46,388 nucleotides of DNA from Methanomicrobiales archaeon. GTDB lineage: Archaea; Halobacteriota; Methanomicrobia; Methanomicrobiales; Methanoculleaceae. Within the stretch, counting starts at the first letter, position 1. Every line of letters starts with the position of its first letter. Position numbers and translations under genes: made by a program. The notes under the pieces are model-generated. The model searched no databases, was not told the origin of the DNA, and saw only the letters and a list, made by a program, of their open reading frames with translations. The stretch spans positions 1-46,388 of the forward strand of contig JAAZOW010000188.1 in assembly GCA_012797575.1 (NCBI GenBank). Reading direction: 5' to 3'. Below are positions 26,734 through 37,685 of this stretch, in pieces.

Positions 26734-27555
26734 ATGGATACGGTCGGGGTTATCGGTTGCGGAGAGATGGGGCGCATGCTGGTGGACGGGTTTCTTTCGT
26801 CGGGGGTGCTCCGGGCTGATGAAGTTGTGGTCTCATCGAGGAGCAAGGGGAGCCTGGATACATGCGCGGCCGCCTGGCCGGGGATCGGTATCGCGGCGAC
26901 AAATACTGAGCTCGCCCGGCAGTGCCGCCTGATCATCATCGCCGTCAGACCGCAGGAGATCATGGCTGTCCTCCGCGAGATCGCTCCGGTGATGGATGGT
27001 AGTGAGCATATCGTCTCGCTTGCCGCTGGCGTAGGCCTTGCGGATCTTGAATCGGTATTCTGGGGTTCGGTCACCCGCACTGTGCCCACGATCACGTCCC
27101 GGGCTTGGCAGGGGACGACGCTGATCTGCCACGGACACCGGGTTGGGGCGGGCGACGCCATCCGGGTGGAGGAGCTCCTCTCCTCCATCGGTGACGTGAT
27201 GCTCGTCGGAGAGGATGAACTCGCGGTGGCAACGCTCCTTTCGAGCTGCGGGCCGGGGTTGCTTGTTGCCATCATCGAGGAGATGGCCCAGGCGGCATCC
27301 CGCGCAGGTGACCTCTCGTACGACCGGGCTCTTTCGCTTGCGACGGGGATGGCCATGGCCACGGCTGCCTGCATGAGAAAGGCCGGCGAAGCACCGCCCG
27401 ACCTGATCCGGCGGGTTGCGACCGGTGGCGGCATGACCGAGGTCGGGGTGCAGGAGCTCCGTGAACGGCTGCCCATGATCTTTGATGAGGTTTTTGCCGC
27501 TATGCTGGAGCGTCATGGTGCGCTTGAGAGATGGTGTGGCAGGAAGTCGCCCTGA
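26734..27555 (+). CDS. proC: Pyrroline-5-carboxylate reductase family protein
   Basis: [27 protein letters not shown] and [10 protein letters not shown] motifs; GGAGG SD; divergent from canonical ProC. Confidence 0.75.
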
Positions 27556-27611
27556 TCCTGGGAGGGTGCGGGCAGGCTTTAAGTGGTGGGGCGGCTACAT
27601 CTCCGGTGGAT

Positions 27612-28241
27612 ATGAAGATCGTCGTCTCTGTGGAGGATACCGGCTCTATCGATGAGGTGATAAAGTATAGCCCAACGTTCATCGAGCTCAGGCTCGACCG
27701 GATGGCCGATGATCCGCTGGATCAGGTCCGTGCGGTCCGGGAACAGACCGCCATCCCCCTTATCGCCACGCTCAGGAGCAGGGAAGAGGGGGGAGATTTC
27801 GTCGGCGGCGCGGATCTCTGGGCTCGCATCGTCAATCCGATTGCGAAGTACGTTGATCTCGTGGATATCGAGGCCCGTTACCGGGACCATGCACCGGCCA
27901 TCAAGAGCCAGGGGGTCCAGATAATCGCGTCCCTCCACACGAACGAGATGCCTTCTCCCTCAGAGCTGAGAGAGATCGAGGGGATGCTCAGATCGTATGG
28001 CGACATACCGAAGATCGTCGTGAAGCCCCGCACCCCCGATGACCTCCTCGCGCTCATCGCGTTCACCCATCATGCCCAAAAGCCCATCTGCACAAGCGTC
28101 ATGGGCTCTGAGTTTCGCTACGCACGCGCGATCCTGCCGCTTCTCGGCTCGGAGTTCACCTTCTGTCACGCCGGAACTCCGACGGCCGGGGGGCAGTACC
28201 ACATACGGGAGATGCGGCAGATCGCGGACCTGATGAAGTGA
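27612..28241 (+). CDS. aroD: Type I 3-dehydroquinate dehydratase
   Basis: IELRLD, IATLR..EEGG, VDIE, IIAS.H, DIPKIV and A.GQ motifs. Confidence 0.88.
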
Positions 28242-28827: not shown

Positions 28828-29817
28828 CTACCCCCGGTACTTCCTCTGCTCAAGCAGAGCATCGACGATGACGAGCGCGAGCATGCACTCCGCGACCGGG
28901 ACGATGCGCGGGGCGATGCAGGGATCGTGCCTCCCTTCGACCGATACATCCCGCTCGGCCCCGGTCGTATCCACGGTCCGTTGCGTCCGCCGTATCGAGG
29001 GCGTCGGTTTGACCGCGACCCGGACGACGATATCCTGCCCGGTGCTGATCCCACCGAGGATGCCCCCCGCGTGGTTGCTTGCAAACCCAGAGCTCGTGAT
29101 GGGGTCATTCATCTCGCTCCCGAACATCCTGGCGGCGCCGAACCCCTCGCCGATCTCGACGCCCTTCACCGCGCCGATGCCCATCATCGCCCCGGCGATG
29201 GCGGCATCCAGTTTCCCGAAGACCGGATCCCCGAGGCCCGGCGGGCAGCCGGTCGCCGTCACCTCGACGATACCCCCCACGGAGTCCCCGGCATCCCGGG
29301 CGGCACGGATCTCCGCCTCCATCGCCTCCGGCTCCACCGTCCCGTGGACCTCGATGACCCTCCCGCTGACCTCGATACCCTGCGGCGCGAGGCAACGCAT
29401 CGCCACCGCCCCGGCTGCGACCCGGGCAAGGGTCTCCCTCCCAGAGGATCTTCCGCCGCCCCTGTGGTCGCGGAGCCCGTACTTCGCCTGCCAGGTGTAG
29501 TCAGCGTGTCCGGGCCTGAATACATCCCGGAGGGCATCGTAATCCCCCGACCGGGCATCCTGGTTTCTTACGACGAGTGCGATGGGGGCACCGGTCGTCC
29601 TCCCCCCAAATGTCCCCGAGAGGATCTCAACCCGGTCAAGTTCCTGCCGTGCTGACTCAAGCGGACTCTTTCCCGGCCGTCTCCGGTCGAGGTAGGGCTG
29701 TATATCGGTCTCGGTGAGGCCGATCCCCGGCGGGCAGCCGTCGATGACCACACCCACGGCCTTCCCATGGCTCTCGCCAAACGTTGTGCACCTGAAGTTT
29801 CTCCCGAATGTGTTCAT
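28828..29817 (-). CDS. aroC: Chorismate synthase
   Basis: [27 protein letters not shown] and GRHDPC motifs. Confidence 0.96.
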
Positions 29818-31169
29818 TGAAGCATCCCCCGGATCAGTGCGGGCGTGACCGCGATCCCGGTCATCAGCTGGAACTGCGCCACAGCCTGGTGGATGAACAT
29901 CTCAGTCCCCGGTATCACCTCACACCCTGCCCTCTTCGCGGCCCTTATGAGAGGAGTCTCCGGCGGCGTGTAGACGAGGTCAAAGATGGTCATCCCCGGT
30001 TCAAGGTCATCAGGTCCGAGCAGGGCCCGGGTATCGGGATCCATACCGACCGGGGTTGCATCTACAACCACATCGGCGCCACTCTCTCTGAAGTCTTTTA
30101 GTGCTCCCCACCGGCACCTGAACCGCTCCGCAAGCCTCCGCGCCGCATCAGGGCGCCGGGCAAGGATCGAGACGTCCATATCAAGCGACATGAGAGCATA
30201 GGCCGCCGCAGCCGCTGCACCCCCGGCACCGAGGACGACCGCCCGCTCACCCCGCCGGTGGGCGAGCGGCGTGCGCACGCCGATCCAGTCGGTGTTGTAG
30301 CCGTAAAGCCTGTCGCCGCACCGCACAACGGTGTTCACCGCCCCAATAGCCGCTGCATGATCGTCCACCTCGTCGACGTGGCGCATCACATCGGTCTTGA
30401 ACGGTATGGTGACTGAGAGCCCTTTTGTGGGGAGGAGCGAGGCGAGGCGGACGATCTCTCCCACATCAGGCCACTCGATGGAGGTGTAGTGGTACCGCAT
30501 ACCAAAATGGGCGAAGAGTCGATTGTATATGAGCGGGCTCCTGCTGTGGGCGCAGGGGTTACCAGCAATGCCGCATACCCTGAGCTCCGGATCGTGGGCG
30601 ACCATGCTCTTGAGCTCAGAGAGCCCGAACCGCTCAAGGAGGACGTCACGTTCATGCATCGCGGCCGAGGAGATGGTGTCGTCTTGAAGGATCAGGTCTG
30701 CGATCTCCTCCGGCGTGCGCCGCCCGGTATCGATACAGGCATCGGCCGCGCCCAGGTATGCCTCCCTCCTCCGTTCAAGGAGGGCTCGAACCTCCTCTGC
30801 CGGCGGAAGATCGGTCAACTCCGGTCGATCGCTCCCGGTGATCCGATCCCGGATGACATCGGGCGGAGCCGTGAGGAGGATGACCGTGCCGCGCCATCTA
30901 AGGTCAGCGACGTTTTCCGGGTTGCAGACTGCACCGCCGCCGGTGCTGATCACCCCGTTTGCGTCCCGGAGCGATGCTATCACCCCTCGCTCGAGGTCCC
31001 GGAACCCTGCCTCCCCGCGCCGGCTGAATATCTCCGGGATCGTCATGCCTGCCCGACGCTCGATCAGTGCATCGGCATCAAAGAAGGATACTCCCAGCCG
31101 CTCAGCAAGGATCTGTCCGACCGATGTCTTCCCGGTCCCCCGGAACCCTGCAAGGACGATCTTTCTCAC
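29814..31169 (-). CDS. aroE: Shikimate kinase - shikimate dehydrogenase fusion (AroK-AroE)
   Basis: N-terminal [17 protein letters not shown] and STGGG (AroK); C-terminal HSRSP, SVTIPFK, GAVNT, NTD and GAGGAA (AroE); GTG start at 31169 overlaps the aroA stop. Confidence 0.9.
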
Positions 31170-32434
31170 AGCAACCCCTCCCCGTAAAGCGCCTCCCAAA
31201 ATCCCGGGAAGGACTTCTCCACGCACCCGGGATCGCGGATCGCCACGCCACCGACCGCGAACCCGAGCACCGCAAAGGCCATCGCAGTCCGGTGGTCATC
31301 GCGCGGGTCGACGAGCACGCCATGGAGTGGGGCGGGCGTGATCGTAAGGGAGTTCTCCGCGACCTGAACCTCCGCTCCCATCCTCCGGAGGATCTCTGCA
31401 GTCACCCTGACCCTATCACTCTCCTTGTACTGCAGATGCGCGATCCCCCGAATCGTCGTCGGCGATGATGCCGTCGCCGCCACCGCTGCGAGCGTCTGGA
31501 CGGTGTCGGGAGATGATGACATATCGATATCGATCCCGGAGAGGTCACCCGCCCGCTCCACCGCCACCACATCGGCGCCGGTGGTCACGTGACATCCCAT
31601 GGCCTCGAGTGCGGTGAAGAACCGGCGATCTCCCTGGACCGATGTCGGGGAGAGGCCCGTGACCGTGACCCGCCCGCCGCAGACGGCTGCCACCGCGAAG
31701 AGATAGGATGCTGACGAGTAATCCCCCTCGATCCGGTAGTTCCGCCCCCGGTAGGCTGCACCGCTCTTCACTCTGAACCAGTCGTAGCCCCGCCGTTCAA
31801 GCCGGGCGCCGAACCTGAGCATCACATCCACCGTCACGTCGAGGTAAGATCGGGAGGCCGGTGGCGCCGGGAGCGTGAGTTCCACATCTTCATCCGCGTA
31901 GGGCGCCGCCATCAGTATGGAGGATATGAACTGGCTGCTCATGCTCCCATCGACCTCTGCCTTCCCGCCCCTGAGCCTGCCTGAGATCCGGATGGGGGGA
32001 AAACCCGGCCGAGCCATGAACGCAATATCGGCGCCGAGGGCTCGCAGGGCGTCGGCGAGCGGCCCTACCGGCCGCTCAAGCATCCGGGCACTCCCCGTGA
32101 GCACCACCGGGTGCGGGGCGATGAGCGCCGTCGAGGTGAGCAACCGCAGTGTCGTCCCTGAGTTCTCGCAATCGATCGTAACCTCGCCCGACACCGGGAA
32201 AGTCCCGCCACACCCGGTGACGGTGATCTCTCCTGAGCTCCACTCCACCGGCACACCGAGGCTCTCAAGCCCCCGGGCGGTCGCCTCCGTATCGATGGCG
32301 CGGAGGGGTGCCATGATCCGCGATCTTCCTGAAGCGAGCGCAGCGGCGATCAGCGCCCGGTGGGTGTAGCTCTTGGAGGGGGGCGCCTCGAACGTCGCGT
32401 CGACCGGGCCTATCCGCGATATGTTGATGATCAT
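31166..32434 (-). CDS. aroA: EPSP synthase
   Basis: PPSKSYTHR, NSGTTLR, SSQFIS, KESDR and DHR.AM motifs; ATG 32434. Confidence 0.95.
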   Translation of the reverse strand: MIINISRIGPVDATFEAPPSKSYTHRALIAAALASGRSRIMAPLRAIDTEATARGLESLGVPVEWSSGEITVTGCGGTFPVSGEVTIDCENSGTTLRLLTSTALIAPHPVVLTGSARMLERPVGPLADALRALGADIAFMARPGFPPIRISGRLRGGKAEVDGSMSSQFISSILMAAPYADEDVELTLPAPPASRSYLDVTVDVMLRFGARLERRGYDWFRVKSGAAYRGRNYRIEGDYSSASYLFAVAAVCGGRVTVTGLSPTSVQGDRRFFTALEAMGCHVTTGADVVAVERAGDLSGIDIDMSSSPDTVQTLAAVAATASSPTTIRGIAHLQYKESDRVRVTAEILRRMGAEVQVAENSLTITPAPLHGVLVDPRDDHRTAMAFAVLGFAVGGVAIRDPGCVEKSFPGFWEALYGEGLL

Positions 32435-33225
32435 ATCCCCGGCACCCCCATGCGGGCGTAGCACCCAAGCTCCCTGATGGTGGTCACCCTCATAAGTTCC
32501 TCTCTCGCCTCCTGCCATCCTCCCGATATCTCAAGGTCGATGAAGAAGAGGTAACTCCCGATCCCGCGCCGGGACGGTCGGGATTCGATCCTGGTCAGGT
32601 TGATTCCCCGCCGGGCAAAGACTCCCAGGATATCGGCGAGGAGTCCGACGCGATCGATCTTCGGGTCCACAAGAAGGCTACATTTCGTGCACCCATCGTC
32701 GCTACGGGGGGTTGATGATACCTGCACGAACCGGGTGGTGTTGTCCCTGCTGTTCTGGATATCCCAGAGCACGATCGGGAGATCGTAGATCGTCGCTGCC
32801 ATCTCTGGTATGATCGCACCGGCATGGCCATCCCCCTGCATCGCCACGGCGCTTGCTGCGTTGCTGCTCGTATGCACGACCTCCACCCCCAGGCGTTCGA
32901 GGAGGATGGAACACTGTTCGTGGGTCTGCGGGTGGGCATATACGACCCGGAGCTGCTCCGGCTTCCTCCGGGCCGCGAGGTGGTGGCGGACCGGCATATA
33001 GGCCTCTCCTGTGATGGAGACGCCGAACTCAACGAGGCCCTGGAGCGTCTCCCCCACGCCGCCGGCCTCGGAGTTCTCGATCGGCACAAGGCCGTCAACT
33101 GATCCCCCCGCCACACGCTCGATGATGGCGCGGATTGTTGGCAGGAGTTCGATATCGTCAGCGTAGAGCCGTGCGGCGAGCTCGTGGCTGAACGTCCCTG
33201 CCGGACCAAGCGTCAGGACGGTCAT
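32431..33225 (-). CDS. pheA: Prephenate dehydratase with ACT domain
   Basis: LGPAGTFS, PIENS, NTTRF and INLTRIESRPS motifs. Confidence 0.93.
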   Translation of the reverse strand: MTVLTLGPAGTFSHELAARLYADDIELLPTIRAIIERVAGGSVDGLVPIENSEAGGVGETLQGLVEFGVSITGEAYMPVRHHLAARRKPEQLRVVYAHPQTHEQCSILLERLGVEVVHTSSNAASAVAMQGDGHAGAIIPEMAATIYDLPIVLWDIQNSRDNTTRFVQVSSTPRSDDGCTKCSLLVDPKIDRVGLLADILGVFARRGINLTRIESRPSRRGIGSYLFFIDLEISGGWQEAREELMRVTTIRELGCYARMGVPGI

Positions 33226-34055
33226 CTCGCCACCATATGGTTGATGAGATCATCGGTCTCTTCTGTGGCGGCCGCGAGGTACGAGGCGTAGTGGGCGGCA
33301 TTCTCGGCGAAGAACGCCTGGAACCGATCGCTGTCGCCGGACTCCACGATCTCCCGGAGCGCCCGGACCGCCTCCGCAAACGTGGCAAGCATCTCTGGGA
33401 CGGCAGGGTTCATCAGGAGCATATCCCCATAGAGCCCCGCGTCCTGTGCGAGAAGCCGCCCTGCAAGCCCCATCTCAATCCGGTAGATGGGGCTGGTAAA
33501 CGAGAGGGTCTCATCCACATCGGTGCCGGTCCGGCGGATCGCCTCCGCCTTTGCGAGCGCTCCGAAGTGGGTGAGCCCCTGGATCACCGCCATCATCCGG
33601 TCGTGATCCTCCGCCGTTGTAAGGGTTATGGCCGCTCCCTGGTCGCGGAAGATCGAGAGGAGTCTCTCAAGGGTCGTGGGGACGCACCGGGCCGGAATCG
33701 CGACGATCGTCTGGCCTCTGAGCGATACAGCACCCGGTCCAAACATCGGGTGGAGCCCGATCACCTCGGCGCGGGAGGCAAGCATCGCCCGGACCGGTTC
33801 GACCTTGAGGGAGGTGAGGTCACAGAAGATCTGATCTCGTGTGAGCAGTGGAGCGATCTCGAGGATGACCCCAACGGTAGCGCGGATCGGCACCGAGACC
33901 ATGACAAGGTCAGCCATCTCCGCGACGTCCCGATTGGTGAGGGCTGTCTCTCTCCCTGAGACGATCACCTCCAAGCCCGCCCCTTCAAAGACCTCGGCGA
34001 AGAATCGCCCCATCTGTCCGGTGCCGCCTATGATGCCTGCAAGCATTGCCATCAC
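33222..34055 (-). CDS. tyrA: Prephenate/arogenate dehydrogenase
   Basis: IIGGTGQMG, D.TS.K, HPMFGP and HD.MMA.IQGL.H motifs. Confidence 0.92.
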   Translation of the reverse strand: MMAMLAGIIGGTGQMGRFFAEVFEGAGLEVIVSGRETALTNRDVAEMADLVMVSVPIRATVGVILEIAPLLTRDQIFCDLTSLKVEPVRAMLASRAEVIGLHPMFGPGAVSLRGQTIVAIPARCVPTTLERLLSIFRDQGAAITLTTAEDHDRMMAVIQGLTHFGALAKAEAIRRTGTDVDETLSFTSPIYRIEMGLAGRLLAQDAGLYGDMLLMNPAVPEMLATFAEAVRALREIVESGDSDRFQAFFAENAAHYASYLAAATEETDDLINHMVAR

Positions 34056-35041
34056 TTCTCGAGGATGGTCTCGGCGACAGCGATGCCGAAGTGCCGCCCG
34101 CCCTCCGTGACGCTCCCGAGCACCCGGTCACCCACAGCGAGGCGGGCGACCGATATCGCTCCACCGTCCTCCGCGACAAGCCTGATGGTCTCAGCGTTCT
34201 GAAGGACGAGGCTCACCTCCGCATCTCCGGCTTTTGCCTCGACGAGGAGAAGCGGGCGGCGTTCGATCTTTGCCCGGCCGACGATCACCTCGCGGGTCGT
34301 GCCGGTATGCTCGACGATGAGCACCTTATCCCCTGCCGCAAGATCGGTGAGGTAGGCGGTCCTCCCGTCAGGGAGGAGGGTGTAGGCGTGCACCGCTCCG
34401 GCATTCACCCGGAACGGGCGCGGGGCCACGTAGGGGTTCTCCAAGGTCTCTGGATGTACCATCAGGAACGCCGACGATGTGTTGCCGACGAGCATCCCGT
34501 CCCCGTCGGAGAGGAGGGAACAGGTATCCACGCAGACCCGGTCCCCCATGCCGACGGGAGCGATCCGGGTCACCTCGAAGGGTATGAGGGTGACCTTGGC
34601 GCCCAGACCTGCGATCACGCCTGCCACCCGCCGGATCTCGGACGGATCATCCGTCACAAGCAGGATACCCGCAACCCCCCGTTCGAGGACACTCAGCGCG
34701 ATCTCCGCCTCATCTGCGTTCGTGACTTCAGCGATGATCCGATCGGACTGCGCGGCAAGGTTTTCAAGCGGGATGACCGTCCAGTCCCCGGTCTTTGCGA
34801 TGACGTAACCCGCCCGGGAGAGCCTGAGCGCCTCCTCCTCAGCTGCCTTATCGGTGATCTCAACCTCAAAGATATCCTCTCCGGGGACGAGATCGCCGCC
34901 CTCAGCGATGGTCGTCACCCGCCCGAGCTCGCGCACACGGTCGGCGTCATCCACCATCAGGGCATCGGCCCCGCTCTCGATCGCGGTGGTCGCGAGATCT
35001 TTCCTCCACGGCCGGACATCGACCCAGAACTGCTTCATCAT
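34052..35041 (-). CDS. 3-dehydroquinate synthase II (AroB')
   Basis: DWTVIPLEN, GDRVCVDTCS, RPFRVNAG, QNAETI and GRHFG motifs. Confidence 0.93.
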   Translation of the reverse strand: MMKQFWVDVRPWRKDLATTAIESGADALMVDDADRVRELGRVTTIAEGGDLVPGEDIFEVEITDKAAEEEALRLSRAGYVIAKTGDWTVIPLENLAAQSDRIIAEVTNADEAEIALSVLERGVAGILLVTDDPSEIRRVAGVIAGLGAKVTLIPFEVTRIAPVGMGDRVCVDTCSLLSDGDGMLVGNTSSAFLMVHPETLENPYVAPRPFRVNAGAVHAYTLLPDGRTAYLTDLAAGDKVLIVEHTGTTREVIVGRAKIERRPLLLVEAKAGDAEVSLVLQNAETIRLVAEDGGAISVARLAVGDRVLGSVTEGGRHFGIAVAETILEK

Positions 35042-35829
35042 CCACGCTCCAGCGCATCGGCCGGGTCTGTCCCTTCATGCACCACCCGGCAGATCGAGCC
35101 TATGAACCGGCCGGGATCTTCACGCTGGAAAGCGTTTCTTCCCATGCAGACGCCCGCCGCGCCCGCCGCGATGGCATCGTGGATGGTCGTGAGCGTCTCA
35201 AGATCGCCGCCCTTCTCGCCGCCGGCGATCATCACCGGCACAGAGCAGGCTTCGGTGATCTGATGGAAGGTCTCCGGGTCCCCGGTGTAGTTGGTCTTGA
35301 TGAGATCTGCCCCGAGCTCCTCGGCGACCCGGACGCAGTGCCCGATCGCCTGCGGTTGCCGGGGATCGATCCTCTCGCCGCGTGGGTAGATCATGATCAG
35401 GAGTGGCATCCCCCAGCGGTTGCAATCCCGCACCACCGCGCCTGCGGACTCGATCATCCGCGACTCGTTCGGCGCACCCAGATTGATGTGGATCGAGACC
35501 GCATCAGCGCCGAGAGCGACCGCCTCTTCCACGGTGCAGACAAGCACCTTGTCGTTTGGGTCAGGGTTCATCGATGTGCTCGCAGAGAGGTGCACGATAA
35601 GACCGATATCTTTTCCGCGTTTCCGGTGCCCCCCCTTTACCATACCCTTGTGGAGCACGATGGCGTTTGCCCCCGCCTCACTCACCTCGCTGACGATCTT
35701 CGTCATATCGCGGAGCCCCTCGATCTGGCCCATGGTGAACCCGTGATCCATGGGAATAACCACGGCGCGACCGGTGTTCCGATCCATTATCCGCTCAAGG
35801 CGGATCTCCTTTCCGATCATACCCATCAC
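35038..35829 (-). CDS. 2-amino-3,7-dideoxy-D-threo-hept-6-ulosonate synthase / class IA aldolase, paralog B
   Basis: [26 protein letters not shown] and GRN motifs. Confidence 0.9.
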
Positions 35830-36617
35830 GCCCTGAGGATCTCCACTGCTTCCTCTGCAGACCTTCCTTCATGGATGATCAGCGCCGCGGCCCGTATCAG
35901 GCGATCGGGTGCCTGGTGCTGGAAGGCGTTCCTCCCGATCGATATCCCGGCGGCGCCCCCTTCCATCGCGCCCTCCACAAGGTCGAGTATCGCGTGGTCG
36001 TCGGTCTTCGATCCGCCTGCGACCACGACTGGAACCGGGCATCCTCTCGTCACCTCACGGAACGAGTCTGGATCCCCGGTGTAGACGGTCTTGACGATGT
36101 CGGCACCGAGTTCGGCCGCCACCCGCGCAGCGAGTTTGACGCTCTCGACCCCGTACTCATCCACGACTTTCCTGCCCCTCGGGTACATCATCGCAAGGAG
36201 TGGCATTCCCCACTCCATACATGTAATCGCGACTTCACCGAGGTCTTCAAGCATCTTTGCCTCGGAGTCGGCTCCGACGTTGATATGCACTGAGACACCG
36301 TCGGCACCCATCTTCAGGGCGTTTGTGACGGTGTTTACGAGCACTTTGTCGTTCGGGTCGGGGCCGATGCTGGTGCTCGCTGAGAGGTGCATGATAAGGC
36401 CAACATCCTGCCCATGCCCCCGGTGGCCGTGTAGCGCAAGCCCTACGTGCCCGATCACTGCGTTTGCTCCCCCGTCGGCGACGAGGTCGATAGTCGCTCC
36501 AAGATCGACCAGTCCCGGTATAGGTCCAAGCGTCACACCGTGGTCAAGCGGTACGATGATGGTCCTGCCGGTATTCCGATCCATGATACGTTCCAGACGA
36601 ATCTCTTTTCCTCTCAT
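35826..36617 (-). CDS. 2-amino-3,7-dideoxy-D-threo-hept-6-ulosonate synthase / class IA aldolase, paralog A
   Basis: [20 protein letters not shown] and GRN motifs; GGAGG SD before ATG 36617. Confidence 0.9.
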
Positions 36618-36665
36618 AATAACAACCTCCCCCGGATCTTGAGTGAACACAATATCCGAAATGAC

Positions 36666-36809
36666 TCAAAACCAGGTAAAATAGCGATAGAACGCTGCCG
36701 CTCCGTGATAACGGATACCGGCGATTAAAAGTTGGCGTGTTGCTCCTGCACAGGCGATAGCTGCTCCGTTAACCGAGGTAAAGGCGGTCACCGGCGAAAA
36801 AACATTCAC
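36666..36809 (-). CDS. Putative 47-aa leader peptide ending FYRYFTWF
   Basis: Open from GTG 36809 to TGA 36666, downstream of the operon TATA box; 6 of the last 8 codons are aromatic; no SD before the GTG. Confidence 0.4.
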   Translation of the reverse strand: MNVFSPVTAFTSVNGAAIACAGATRQLLIAGIRYHGAAAFYRYFTWF

Positions 36810-36816
36810 CTTGCAT
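36769..36816 (-). CDS. Putative leaderless 15-aa uORF MQGECFFAGDRLYLG
   Basis: ATG at the expected transcription start, ~23 nt after the TATA box; contains UUU UUC. Confidence 0.35.
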   Translation of the reverse strand: MQGECFFAGDRLYLG

Positions 36817-36838
36817 TGTGCGTATGGTTGTGCATACT

Positions 36839-36847
36839 CATATAAAA
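36839..36847 (-). promoter_or_regulatory. TATA box of the aromatic biosynthesis operon
   Basis: Minus strand TTTTATATG; best TATA match upstream of the operon, implying a ~200-nt leader. Confidence 0.6.
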
Positions 36848-37142
36848 GTGTTCCGGATTGTTGTGCGGGGGGGCAGGCCGTGGGTCGGCCCGGGCTTCGT
36901 GGGACCCCGCATCCGTGTATCCGGAGACCTTGCTGGCTTTTGGTATGAGAAGTCCCCGGTTCTGTTCCGCGCTCAGGCTCCAGCTCCCCCTGGAAGGAGA
37001 GGGTGTCCTCCTGCTCCCTACCGCGCGACGCGATACCCATCGCCACCTCCTTTGCTTGAGCGGCCCCGGAGAGGGGGTGGGTTTCATGCGTTCAGCCTCC
37101 TGCCGCCGCTGACGTTTTGTGGGAAAAGTAGCTATTACAGCC

Positions 37143-37628
37143 TCACTTTCGGCTCTTCTTGAATGCTATGACATCGCCGACGGTCATGGTCATGCGCCCC
37201 GGCCCGCTGGCGGGGGTGGCATCTTCAGGCGAATCGAGCAGCCGGATCTCAAGCGTTCTCTCAAGCTTTCGCCGGAGATCGTCTTCGGGAATGAGATCTC
37301 CTTTCTCGATCTTCTTAATGAGGACCTCACGCTCCTTGATCTCCTGTGCGAGGTCGAGGGTAGACCATCCCTTCCCTTCCCGGGCGACACGGATCCGGTC
37401 GGCGTAGTCTTCAACGATCTCTCCTTCCATCAGATCAAAGACATCGCGCGGCCGCCTTCTGGTCTGCGTGACGGCGAAGCCTGGTTTTTTCTGGATACCT
37501 ATCTGTCGGGATTGCTGGACTTCTGTACCGTGTTTTGCACATCGGACACAGACACAGAGCTCTGCACCTTCGATCTGGATAGTCTTCGGCGGTCCCTGAA
37601 TGAGGGCGCCGCATAGTTCACACTGCAT
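37143..37628 (-). CDS. mbf1: Archaeal multiprotein bridging factor 1
   Basis: Zn ribbon CELC...CVRC plus HTH (IR.ARE.KGWS..DLA..IKE); T.GD tail. Confidence 0.92.
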
Positions 37629-37685
37629 AAGTCTCGCAAACAACTTTATATTCATTTTAACCTATATAATTATTTGAGGAGACCT

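What the first reader, a model, noticed from the sequence alone, without database searches (positions are those of the whole stretch)
36618..36850. Candidate archaeal leader-peptide attenuator for the aromatic amino acid operon (uORF ending FYRYFTWF)
Seen: the best TATA box (36839-36847, minus) lies ~220 nt upstream of the first of eight overlapping chorismate/Phe/Tyr genes. The leader carries an open frame 36809-36666 (VNVFSPVTAFTSVNGAAIACAGATRQLLIAGIRYHGAAAFYRYFTWF*). Its last 8 codons include 3 Phe, 2 Tyr and 1 Trp, covering all three chorismate-derived amino acids, and it stops 48 nt before the first gene. U-tracts overlap these codons. Known: bacterial trp/phe operons sense charged tRNA through such leaders; archaea couple transcription and translation and terminate at U-tracts or via aCPSF1/FttA; the characterised archaeal aromatic regulators I know are proteins such as TrpY. 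Inference: ribosome stalling on aromatic codons controls read-through or downstream initiation. Caveats: U-rich sequence favours Phe/Tyr codons by chance, and the GTG has no SD.
Basis: partly seen in the sequence, partly recalled or inferred. Interest (0 to 1): 0.85.

Follow-up and report, generated by a model that had tools for sequence, protein, structure and literature searches.

The report
Frameshift-gated aromatic amino acid leader
Ahead of the aromatic amino acid operon of this methanogen and its order lie two overlapping tiny reading frames; ribosomes short of phenylalanine or tyrosine likely slip one base from the first into the second and so likely switch the operon on, which would be an amino-acid-sensing frameshift switch in archaea.

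Summary
The aromatic-tailed frame (ORF B, 36809-36666) is real (2 of 5000 shuffles) and conserved across all six families of Methanomicrobiales. Of 183 distinct leaders, 156 are two-frame, 25 are one fused frame from ATG to tail, 2 are neither. All 155 scored two-frame leaders carry two +1-prone sites, YTT-Phe and YTT-Tyr; fused forms arose at least 4 times and 0 of 24 keep such a pair. A hairpin follows the tail stop and often covers the Shine-Dalgarno of the first gene. Best reading: hungry-codon +1 frameshifting sends ribosomes to the tail and opens the operon. The output step is less sure (hairpin opening versus FttA termination); Trp sensing is not conserved (99 of 179). Nothing is shown experimentally. 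Not found in ten literature searches. This scan noted the same system before on another genome (e1-6492365).

The parts
36840..36847 (-). TATA box of the leader
   Evidence: Sequence; a TATA-like hexamer starts 28-32 nt before the ORF A ATG in 158 of 180 leaders; the same spacing peaks before ATGs of long ORFs in G000 (8.3 per position at 28-33 against 2.7 at 40-110)
36769..36816 (-). ORF A, 15 codons, likely leaderless (ATG at or next to the inferred transcription start)
   Evidence: 14-26 codons in 155 leaders, stop codon varies TAG 84/TAA 45/TGA 26, stop 1-2 codons after the Tyr in 139 of 155
36793..36810 (-). 5' hairpin, 6 bp (36810-36805 with 36798-36793), site 1 P codon in its loop; also holds an SD-like GGTGA
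   Evidence: 785 of 786 cells paired in 131 short leaders, slid controls 194-645; a re-registered stem in the 24 long leaders, 217 of 240
36796..36801 (-). Predicted +1 shift site 1: TTT then TTC (Phe)
   Evidence: P codon TTT 139/CTT 16, A codon TTC 137/TTT 18 of 155
36778..36783 (-). Predicted +1 shift site 2: CTT then TAC (Tyr)
   Evidence: P codon TTT 109/CTT 46, A codon TAT 123/TAC 32 of 155
36666..36809 (-).
   Evidence: open from site 1 to the tail in 155 leaders, 28 different ATG-to-stop lengths from 112 to 295 nt; no Pfam or NCBIfam match
36666..36692 (-). Aromatic, U-rich tail (FYRYFTWF) and stop
36628..36664 (-). Predicted hairpin starting just after the ORF B stop; its 3' arm reaches the 5' part of the SD
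36625..36630 (-). Shine-Dalgarno sequence (GGAGGT) of the first gene
   Evidence: Sequence; SD-to-start register in G000 peaks at 14-15
35826..36617 (-). First operon gene, ADH synthase (aroA')
   Evidence: TIGR01949 and NF005556 above cut-off
28828..35829 (-). Seven further overlapping genes for chorismate, Tyr and Phe synthesis

Best explanation
The leader holds two overlapping reading frames, and ribosomes that likely start at the first base of the mRNA are predicted to slip +1 from ORF A into ORF B when Phe- or Tyr-tRNA is scarce, run to the aromatic tail and likely switch the operon on. Shown in sequence: ORF A, ORF B in +1, two YTT-T sites with a Phe and a Tyr codon next in frame A, the tail, and conservation across the order. 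Inferred step 1: leaderless initiation at 36816. Inferred step 2: with amino acids plentiful the ribosome reads both sites and stops after 15 codons, leaving about 150 nt bare, so the operon stays low. Inferred step 3: with UUY or UAY empty in the A site, the P-site tRNA on UUU or CUU re-pairs on the overlapping UUU and enters frame B. Inferred step 4 (least sure): a ribosome pausing on the last aromatic codons or at the stop covers the 5' arm of the hairpin that follows and frees the SD of aroA'; masking of the U-rich tail from FttA/aCPSF1 may add to or replace this. My odds: sensing leader 0.93, entry by +1 shift 0.7, output mainly by SD opening about 0.5.
For: Order-wide architecture: 156 two-frame and 25 fused of 183 leaders. 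P codon is TTT or CTT at 310 of 310 sites, never TTC, ATT or GTT, though TTT is 29% of Phe and CTT 16% of Leu codons in G000 and the pairs YTT-TTC/TAC are avoided in its ORFs (observed/expected 0.31-0.59 against 1.2-1.7 for YTC). On a tree of 153 rows the first base of the P codon changes 6 and 9 times, only between T and C, while neighbouring first positions take transversions (14 and 22 changes); the A codons change synonymously in frame A 10 and 13 times, which is non-synonymous in frame B; the ORF A stop changes identity 15 times. Fused leaders arose at least 4 times, align to two-frame relatives with a 1- or 4-nt loss at or next to site 1 (L134-L140, L190, L191, g11/g19 group) or at site 2 (L103), and 0 of 24 keep a YTT-Phe/Tyr pair. 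L106 has the ATG of frame A away from the promoter and there it has an SD-like GGGAG in front. Shift sites sense only Phe and Tyr, matching the operon's pheA and tyrA genes. Tail Tyr+Trp codons: 549 in frame against 11 and 121 in the other frames. A stem starts within 12 nt of the tail stop in 152 of 155 and 24 of 24, with a different arm sequence in each clade and double changes in 5 of 8 clade alignments; SD at least half paired in 100 of 155; median cost of opening the start region falls from 9.7 to 5.7 kcal/mol with a ribosome at the stop. Precedent: a hungry sense codon after CUU gave +1 shifting in 70S extracts (PMC6321510, passages); shifted ermCL ribosomes unfold structure and permit ermC initiation (PMC5009743, passage).
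Against: No transcription start, footprint or trans-frame peptide was observed; RNA contigs ran through the region and could not show a start. Frame B has GTG or ATG three codons before site 1 in 154 of 155. The site 1 A codon lies in the 5' stem, so its conservation has a second explanation. T-runs are deletion hot spots and any fusion must fall before the ORF A stop, so the junction positions are not independent proof; several fused alignments are weak. The +1 relation was part of my class definition, and tails were picked for at least 4 aromatic codons. The cost of opening the start region is not above shuffles (84 of 155 above the shuffle mean; fused 9 of 24, median 3.6 against 5.5). The SD is fully unpaired in 31 of 155 and 9 of 24, and half paired in only 2 of 14 fused leaders with spacers of 80 nt or more. 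The hairpin position control is modest (158 of 179 against 105-119 in shuffles), and the Methanoculleus consensus stem is 4 pairs with no double change. Stalls 8 codons before the stop rarely help (20 of 155). GGTGA sits at the relaxed initiation spacing (register 14), not the tight RF2 spacing (recalled), and the 5' hairpin is weak (about -6 kcal/mol). pheL shows that real leader frameshifting can be incidental (PMC3082878, abstract).
Confidence: 0.62

Rival explanations
1. Same frameshift-gated entry, but the output is transcription termination: a bare U-rich tail is cut by FttA/aCPSF1 (or a terminator forms), and a ribosome carried into frame B and stalled on the tail protects it.
For: Tails prefer the U-ending codons (TTT:TTC 414:187, TAT:TAC 390:53; aroA' itself 66:383 and 65:331) and 152 of 179 have a U run of 4 or more. 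FttA binds and cuts U-rich RNA, and exclusion by a coupled ribosome is hypothesised (PMC11616081, passages). It covers the leaders whose hairpin is far from the SD. In the g19/g11 leaders the tail, both arms and a downstream repeat could by eye form alternative pairings ending in a U run (not tested).
Against: The middle of frame B has the same U-ending preference (183:80, 106:42) and U runs of 4 or more in 106 of 179, so the bias is not tail-specific; U-ending codons may instead be slow codons. It does not explain why the hairpin's 3' arm reaches the SD in most clades. No terminator-like site in the window.
Confidence: 0.2
2. ORF B starts at its own GTG/ATG (36809 here) and is an ordinary leader peptide; ORF A competes for or modulates that start, with no frameshift.
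For: RTG at that place in 154 of 155, with 6 GTG-ATG swaps on the tree. Frame B codons after it vary mostly at third positions.
Against: Only 7 nt precede the GTG in 131 of 155 leaders, so no SD fits. The hairpin predicts the same letters: the R pairs with T as A-U in 15 and G-U in 7 of 24 long forms, and the single GTA exception goes with an A-T pair. It does not explain why the P codons are never ATT or GTT, which are silent in frame B, nor why fused forms use the ATG and lose the sites.
Confidence: 0.1
3. RNA polymerase slips on the T run and makes a share of mRNAs one base shorter, fusing A to B; the fused peptide is then a plain leader.
For: Site 1 is a run of 6-7 T in most leaders; archaeal frameshifted genes often lie in A/T tracts (PMC8211752, passage).
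Against: CTT variants leave 4 T at site 1 (16 leaders) and 3 T at site 2 (46); frame A keeps Phe and Tyr synonymously; no indel listed in contigs of 4 RNA runs, a weak test since contigs drop rare variants.
Confidence: 0.04
4. The element is a structured RNA or DNA site for a protein or tRNA (T-box-like), and the frames are by-products.
For: A conserved 5' hairpin with a U-rich loop; an 18-nt repeat and a near-palindrome across codons 7-10 of ORF A.
Against: No Rfam match; whole-leader folding z = -0.9; an ATG at fixed distance from TATA, a stop that changes identity, length changes that keep the frame and in-frame Tyr/Trp enrichment all point to translation.
Confidence: 0.04

Closest known systems
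ermCL ketolide-induced frameshifting (as summarised in PMC5009743, passage; original paper not read)
   Same: A leader ORF whose frameshifted ribosomes run on into the spacer, unfold structure and allow initiation downstream.
   Different: Trigger here would be lack of charged tRNA at Phe/Tyr codons, not a drug; the shift is +1; two tandem sites; the second frame ends in its own sensor cluster; archaeal.
Bacterial pheL/trpL leader-peptide transcription attenuators (PMC3082878, abstract; trpL from general knowledge)
   Same: Short leader frame rich in codons for the pathway's end products before the biosynthetic genes; the 25 fused leaders look like this.
   Different: 156 of 183 leaders are split over two frames; no intrinsic terminator in the window; the pheL +1 shift is at the stop and was judged incidental.
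Mycobacterial leaderless polycysteine sORF attenuators (10.1101/834739, abstract and passages)
   Same: Likely leaderless start, sensor codon tract, predicted relief of SD occlusion by a stalled ribosome.
   Different: No frameshift gate there; there the tract itself pairs with the SD, here a hairpin after the stop is the better-supported occluder.
RF2 (prfB) +1 programmed frameshift (PMC6321510, passages)
   Same: P-site CUU (or UUU) followed by U, slow A-site decoding as the sensor, +1 direction.
   Different: A site is a sense codon; the shifted product is not a functional protein; the SD-like element is at initiation-like spacing.
Archaeal aromatic regulators TrpY and Tar (PMC6737238, passages); archaeal fucA1 -1 frameshift (PMC8211752, passages)
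   Same: Same pathway (TrpY, Tar); same domain of life and recoding (fucA1).
   Different: TrpY and Tar are DNA-binding proteins; fucA1 is -1, inside a gene, and the only demonstrated cellular case in that 2021 review.

Membership tests
Bacterial-type leader-peptide transcription attenuator (pheL/trpL) | Short leader ORF enriched in end-product codons | tested here: met
Bacterial-type leader-peptide transcription attenuator (pheL/trpL) | One uninterrupted leader ORF from start codon to sensor codons | tested here: not met
   Split over two frames in the window and in 156 of 183 leaders; met in 25
Bacterial-type leader-peptide transcription attenuator (pheL/trpL) | Intrinsic terminator hairpin with U tail and a competing antiterminator | tested here: not met
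   0 terminator-like sites in 36600-37200; g19/g11 leaders suggestive by eye, not tested
Bacterial-type leader-peptide transcription attenuator (pheL/trpL) | Expression responds to charged-tRNA level through the sensor codons | not testable with these tools
   Needs reporters or ribosome profiling
Leaderless sORF translational attenuator (mycobacterial polyCys type) | Start codon at the 5' end of the transcript | tested here: inconclusive
   Inferred from TATA spacing (158 of 180; genome-wide peak); not mapped
Leaderless sORF translational attenuator (mycobacterial polyCys type) | Structure hides the downstream SD and is opened by the stalled ribosome | tested here: inconclusive
   SD half paired in 100 of 155 and 11 of 24; opening cost falls near the stop but is not above shuffles
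RF2-type +1 programmed frameshift | P-site codon able to re-pair at +1 (YUU followed by U) | tested here: met
   310 of 310 sites; only T-C changes
RF2-type +1 programmed frameshift | [quoted passage not shown] | tested here: not met
   Phe and Tyr codons instead
RF2-type +1 programmed frameshift | SD-like element abutting the E site | tested here: not met
   GGTGA is 4 nt before the P codon, the modal initiation spacing in G000; RF2 spacing recalled
RF2-type +1 programmed frameshift | Trans-frame product detected | not testable with these tools
   Needs mass spectrometry or reporters
ermCL-type frameshift induction | Alternate frame of the leader runs to the structure that covers the downstream start | tested here: met
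   Frame B ends just before the stem
ermCL-type frameshift induction | Shift induced by a ribosome-bound antibiotic before a resistance gene | tested here: not met
   Downstream genes are biosynthetic; the conserved sites are Phe/Tyr contexts
T-box or other Rfam cis-regulator | Match to a curated covariance model | tested here: not met
   Only a chance hit, E 3.5, outside the leader

The most novel reading that the evidence does not exclude
A chromosomal, order-wide archaeal switch in which amino acid starvation itself drives programmed +1 frameshifting at tandem Phe and Tyr codons, with the frameshift as sensor and a ribosome delivered to a second frame as effector; fused leaders are its repeatedly evolved, ungated form, and the Trp-codon mini-frame over the trpE start may be a second recoding switch in the same organisms.
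Probability: 0.6. Interest if true: 0.93.

Novelty: new variant of a known kind. Interest (0 to 1): 0.85.

Why it matters
Leader-peptide control of amino acid synthesis was not found described for archaea in my searches, and the known regulators of this pathway there are DNA-binding proteins (PMC6737238). A 2016 review states that no useful starvation-specific product of hungry-codon frameshifting is known and that the best leader candidate, pheL, was incidental (PMC5009743); a 2021 review lists one demonstrated frameshift in an archaeal cellular gene, and it is -1 (PMC8211752). This element gives a compact, conserved test case with exact predicted sites, natural fused controls and one-base mutations that separate the models. 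It also offers a way to test whether ribosomes shield archaeal mRNA from FttA, and a Phe/Tyr-responsive part for methanogen genetics.

Tried and rejected
Rfam scan of 36550-37200: no real match. Pfam and NCBIfam on frame B: none. Whole-leader folding: z -0.9. RNA run contigs (4 of 22 listed runs laid) span the leader and the upstream gene and show no start or end; uninformative for the transcription start. The five-codon -1-frame ORF behind GGTGA (36805) was rejected: its start or stop is missing in many leaders. The His-rich 11-codon frame ending at 36806 begins inside the TATA box and was not seen in relatives. A hairpin of the same geometry at unit 2 fails. The 16S 3' end was not found in G000, so the anti-SD is recalled; tRNA-Leu(GAG) and tRNA-Tyr were not found in this 85% complete assembly, so wobble decoding of the P codons is untested. 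Scans of G000 for other leaders of this build found only this one; G000 has no PF00425 match. Outside the order the exact motif was in 0 of 333 genomes, and 30 outside ADH synthase loci showed no such leader by eye, 3 of 30 passing the aromatic count alone; diverged versions could be missed.

Full report
Observation. The tail is unlikely by chance: 2 of 5000 dinucleotide shuffles of the leader give 6 of 8 aromatic codons before a stop. The nearest named loci are Methanoculleus and unnamed Methanomicrobiales at 92-95% identity of the first gene's protein.

What was missed. An ATG at 36816, 31 nt after the first base of the TATA box, opens a 15-codon ORF A that stops at 36769. ORF A contains TTT-TTC (36801-36796) and, six codons on, CTT-TAC (36783-36778). 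At both, a tRNA on the first codon could re-pair one base forward on TTT, which is frame B.

Sample. I collected 221 loci upstream of the first ADH synthase; 38 were dropped as duplicates or for having under 260 nt upstream, leaving 183 from all six families of the order. My script classed 155 as two-frame, 24 as fused, 1 other and 3 without the start motif. By hand, L106 is two-frame with an SD-led ATG, L131 is fused, L157 is a fused type broken by a frame change (perhaps an assembly error) and L105 is a distant locus without the leader. The class rule demanded a +1 frame with at least 4 aromatic codons in its last 12, so that part is built in; that only 2 of 183 fall outside is not. Counts below use the 155 and 24. 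Kin are not independent, so I also counted changes on a FastTree of 153 aroA' genes; 27 rows without a full gene were left out.

ORF A is under selection as a translated frame (inference). A TATA-like hexamer starts 28-32 nt before its ATG in 158 of 180 leaders; long ORFs of G000 show a peak at the same spacing, so leaderless starts are plausible here. Its stop is TAG 84, TAA 45, TGA 26, changes 15 times on the tree and lies 1-2 codons after the Tyr in 139 of 155. The Phe and Tyr codons change synonymously in frame A (10 and 13 times), which alters the residue in frame B.

The shift sites. The codon before the Phe and before the Tyr is TTT or CTT at 310 of 310 sites. Its first base changed 6 and 9 times, always between T and C; A or G would be silent in frame B and transversions do occur at neighbouring first positions. 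These are minority codons in G000 and the pairs are avoided in its ORFs (the avoidance may have other causes such as U runs). Fused leaders arose at least 4 times on the tree; alignments place a 1- or 4-base loss at or next to site 1 or at site 2, clearly for L134-L140, L103 and L191 and more loosely for the others, and none of 24 keeps a YTT-Phe/Tyr pair. This says that translation from the ATG into the tail is a working unit. It is not proof of shifting, since T runs lose bases easily.

The rival start. Frame B has GTG or ATG three codons before site 1 in 154 of 155. A 6-bp hairpin explains those letters without a start codon: 785 of 786 cells pair in the 131 short leaders (slid controls 194-645), and the 24 long leaders re-register the stem with 217 of 240 cells paired, the variable base pairing as A-U or G-U in 22 of 24. 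The structure was derived from these sequences, so the slid control favours it. The stem also covers the site 1 Phe codon, weakening that codon as independent evidence; the P codons and site 2 are outside conserved pairing. The role of the hairpin is unexplained: it may tune initiation or refold behind the ribosome. An upstream hairpin stimulated +1 shifting at CUU plus a hungry Cys codon in 70S extracts, but that stem had 12 pairs (PMC6321510, passages). GGTGA lies at the modal SD-to-start spacing from each P codon, so it could hold a paused ribosome but is not an RF2-type stimulator.

The tail. The last 12 codons hold Phe in 179, Tyr in 169, Trp in 99 and all three in 93 of 179. Tyr plus Trp number 549 in frame against 11 and 121 in the other frames, so U-richness alone does not account for it. 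In contigs of runs X6 and X9 the window's Trp codon reads Arg.

The output. A stem starts within 12 nt of the tail stop in 152 of 155 and 24 of 24; a stricter test gives 158 of 179 against 105-119 in shuffles. Arms differ by clade and show double changes in 5 of 8 clade alignments, none in Methanoculleus. The SD is at least half paired in 100 of 155 and 11 of 24. Taking a 12-nt downstream footprint (PMC4833913, passage), the median cost of opening the start region falls from 9.7 to 5.7 kcal/mol with a ribosome at the stop, by 2 or more in 92 of 155; in the window from 17.9 to 9.4-13.7. Against this, the free cost is not above shuffles (84 of 155; fused 9 of 24), and long-spacer fused leaders mostly leave the SD open (2 of 14 half paired). 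So FttA/aCPSF1 termination on the bare U-rich leader is a serious rival or partner (PMC11616081, passages; PMC8716108, listing only). Either way the direction fits a biosynthetic operon: only starved ribosomes would reach the tail.

Range. The exact two-site motif is in 41 of 401 genomes of the phylum, all in this order (41 of 68), one copy each, no control hits. Thirty ADH synthase loci outside the order show no such leader by eye; many carry a DNA palindrome at the promoter instead.

Comparison and novelty. It works most like ermCL frameshift induction joined to a pheL-like sensor and an RF2-like slip site, but fails a defining feature of each family. Searches returned no description of it; the library lacks most subscription papers. 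I recall, without having read it here, a proposal of translational attenuation by a two-codon frame before trpY in Methanothermobacter; that would be an archaeal precedent for uORF sensing but not for this design. Passages of the M. mazei Ribo-seq paper mention uORFs generally and no attenuation or frameshift (PMC11456600); I read no supplements, and small-ORF tables there or elsewhere could list related frames.

Verdict. Real, conserved, very likely a translated aromatic sensor; entry by regulated +1 frameshift is the best explanation; output unresolved; no experimental support yet.

Noticed in passing
L253, L254, L255, L287-L290, L292-L300, L302-L315 (trpE starts of relatives): A mini-frame M-P-V-(E/D)-W, 5-13 codons, overlaps the trpE start in another frame. 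Its Trp codon overlaps the trpE-frame ATG (13 of 30 loci) or a CTG (17 of 30); 12 of 30 have no ATG/GTG/TTG in the first 60 trpE-frame codons. Motif in 75 of 151 genomes of the order; in a phylum sample 20 of 251, all in the order. Likely a Trp-sensing translational or recoding switch; mechanism unexplained. TrpE identity checked by Pfam for L253-L255 only.
   Followed up: partly
L262-L284 (ADH synthase promoters outside the order); 13 of 180 leaders inside it, e.g. L030, L078, L190: A palindrome (GTGCTA...TAGCAC type) directly after the TATA box, a likely transcription factor site.
   Followed up: partly
L119, L126, L131, L136, L141-L159 fused leaders: Strong hairpin after the stop, far from the SD; tail, both arms and a downstream repeat could form alternative pairings ending in a U run, like a classical attenuator.
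   Followed up: no
L106:1250-1315: Two-frame leader whose frame A ATG has an SD-like sequence in front instead of lying at the promoter.
   Followed up: partly
window 36674 and 36660: Strain variants in runs X6 and X9: the tail Trp codon reads Arg, and a predicted G-U pair of the 3' hairpin becomes G-C.
   Followed up: no
window 28828-36617 and 27531-28241: The operon has two tandem ADH synthase paralogues and a shikimate kinase-dehydrogenase fusion, no chorismate mutase was identified among the eight genes, and a type I dehydroquinase-like gene lies convergent just beyond it.
   Followed up: no
family f6, genus g19: 32 of 45 genomes lack a match to the first ADH synthase at E 1e-105; many are incomplete and some show only the weaker paralogue-level match.
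   Followed up: no
L252:660-700, L255:575-615: TGTACA boxes at trp promoters, recalled as TrpY sites.
   Followed up: no
G000 tRNA set: ARAGORN lists a tRNA-Thr with anticodon AGT, unusual for archaea (recalled); may be a miscall or contamination.
   Followed up: no
window 37143-37655: The aMBF1 gene precedes the leader, also in many relatives of the genus.
   Followed up: no
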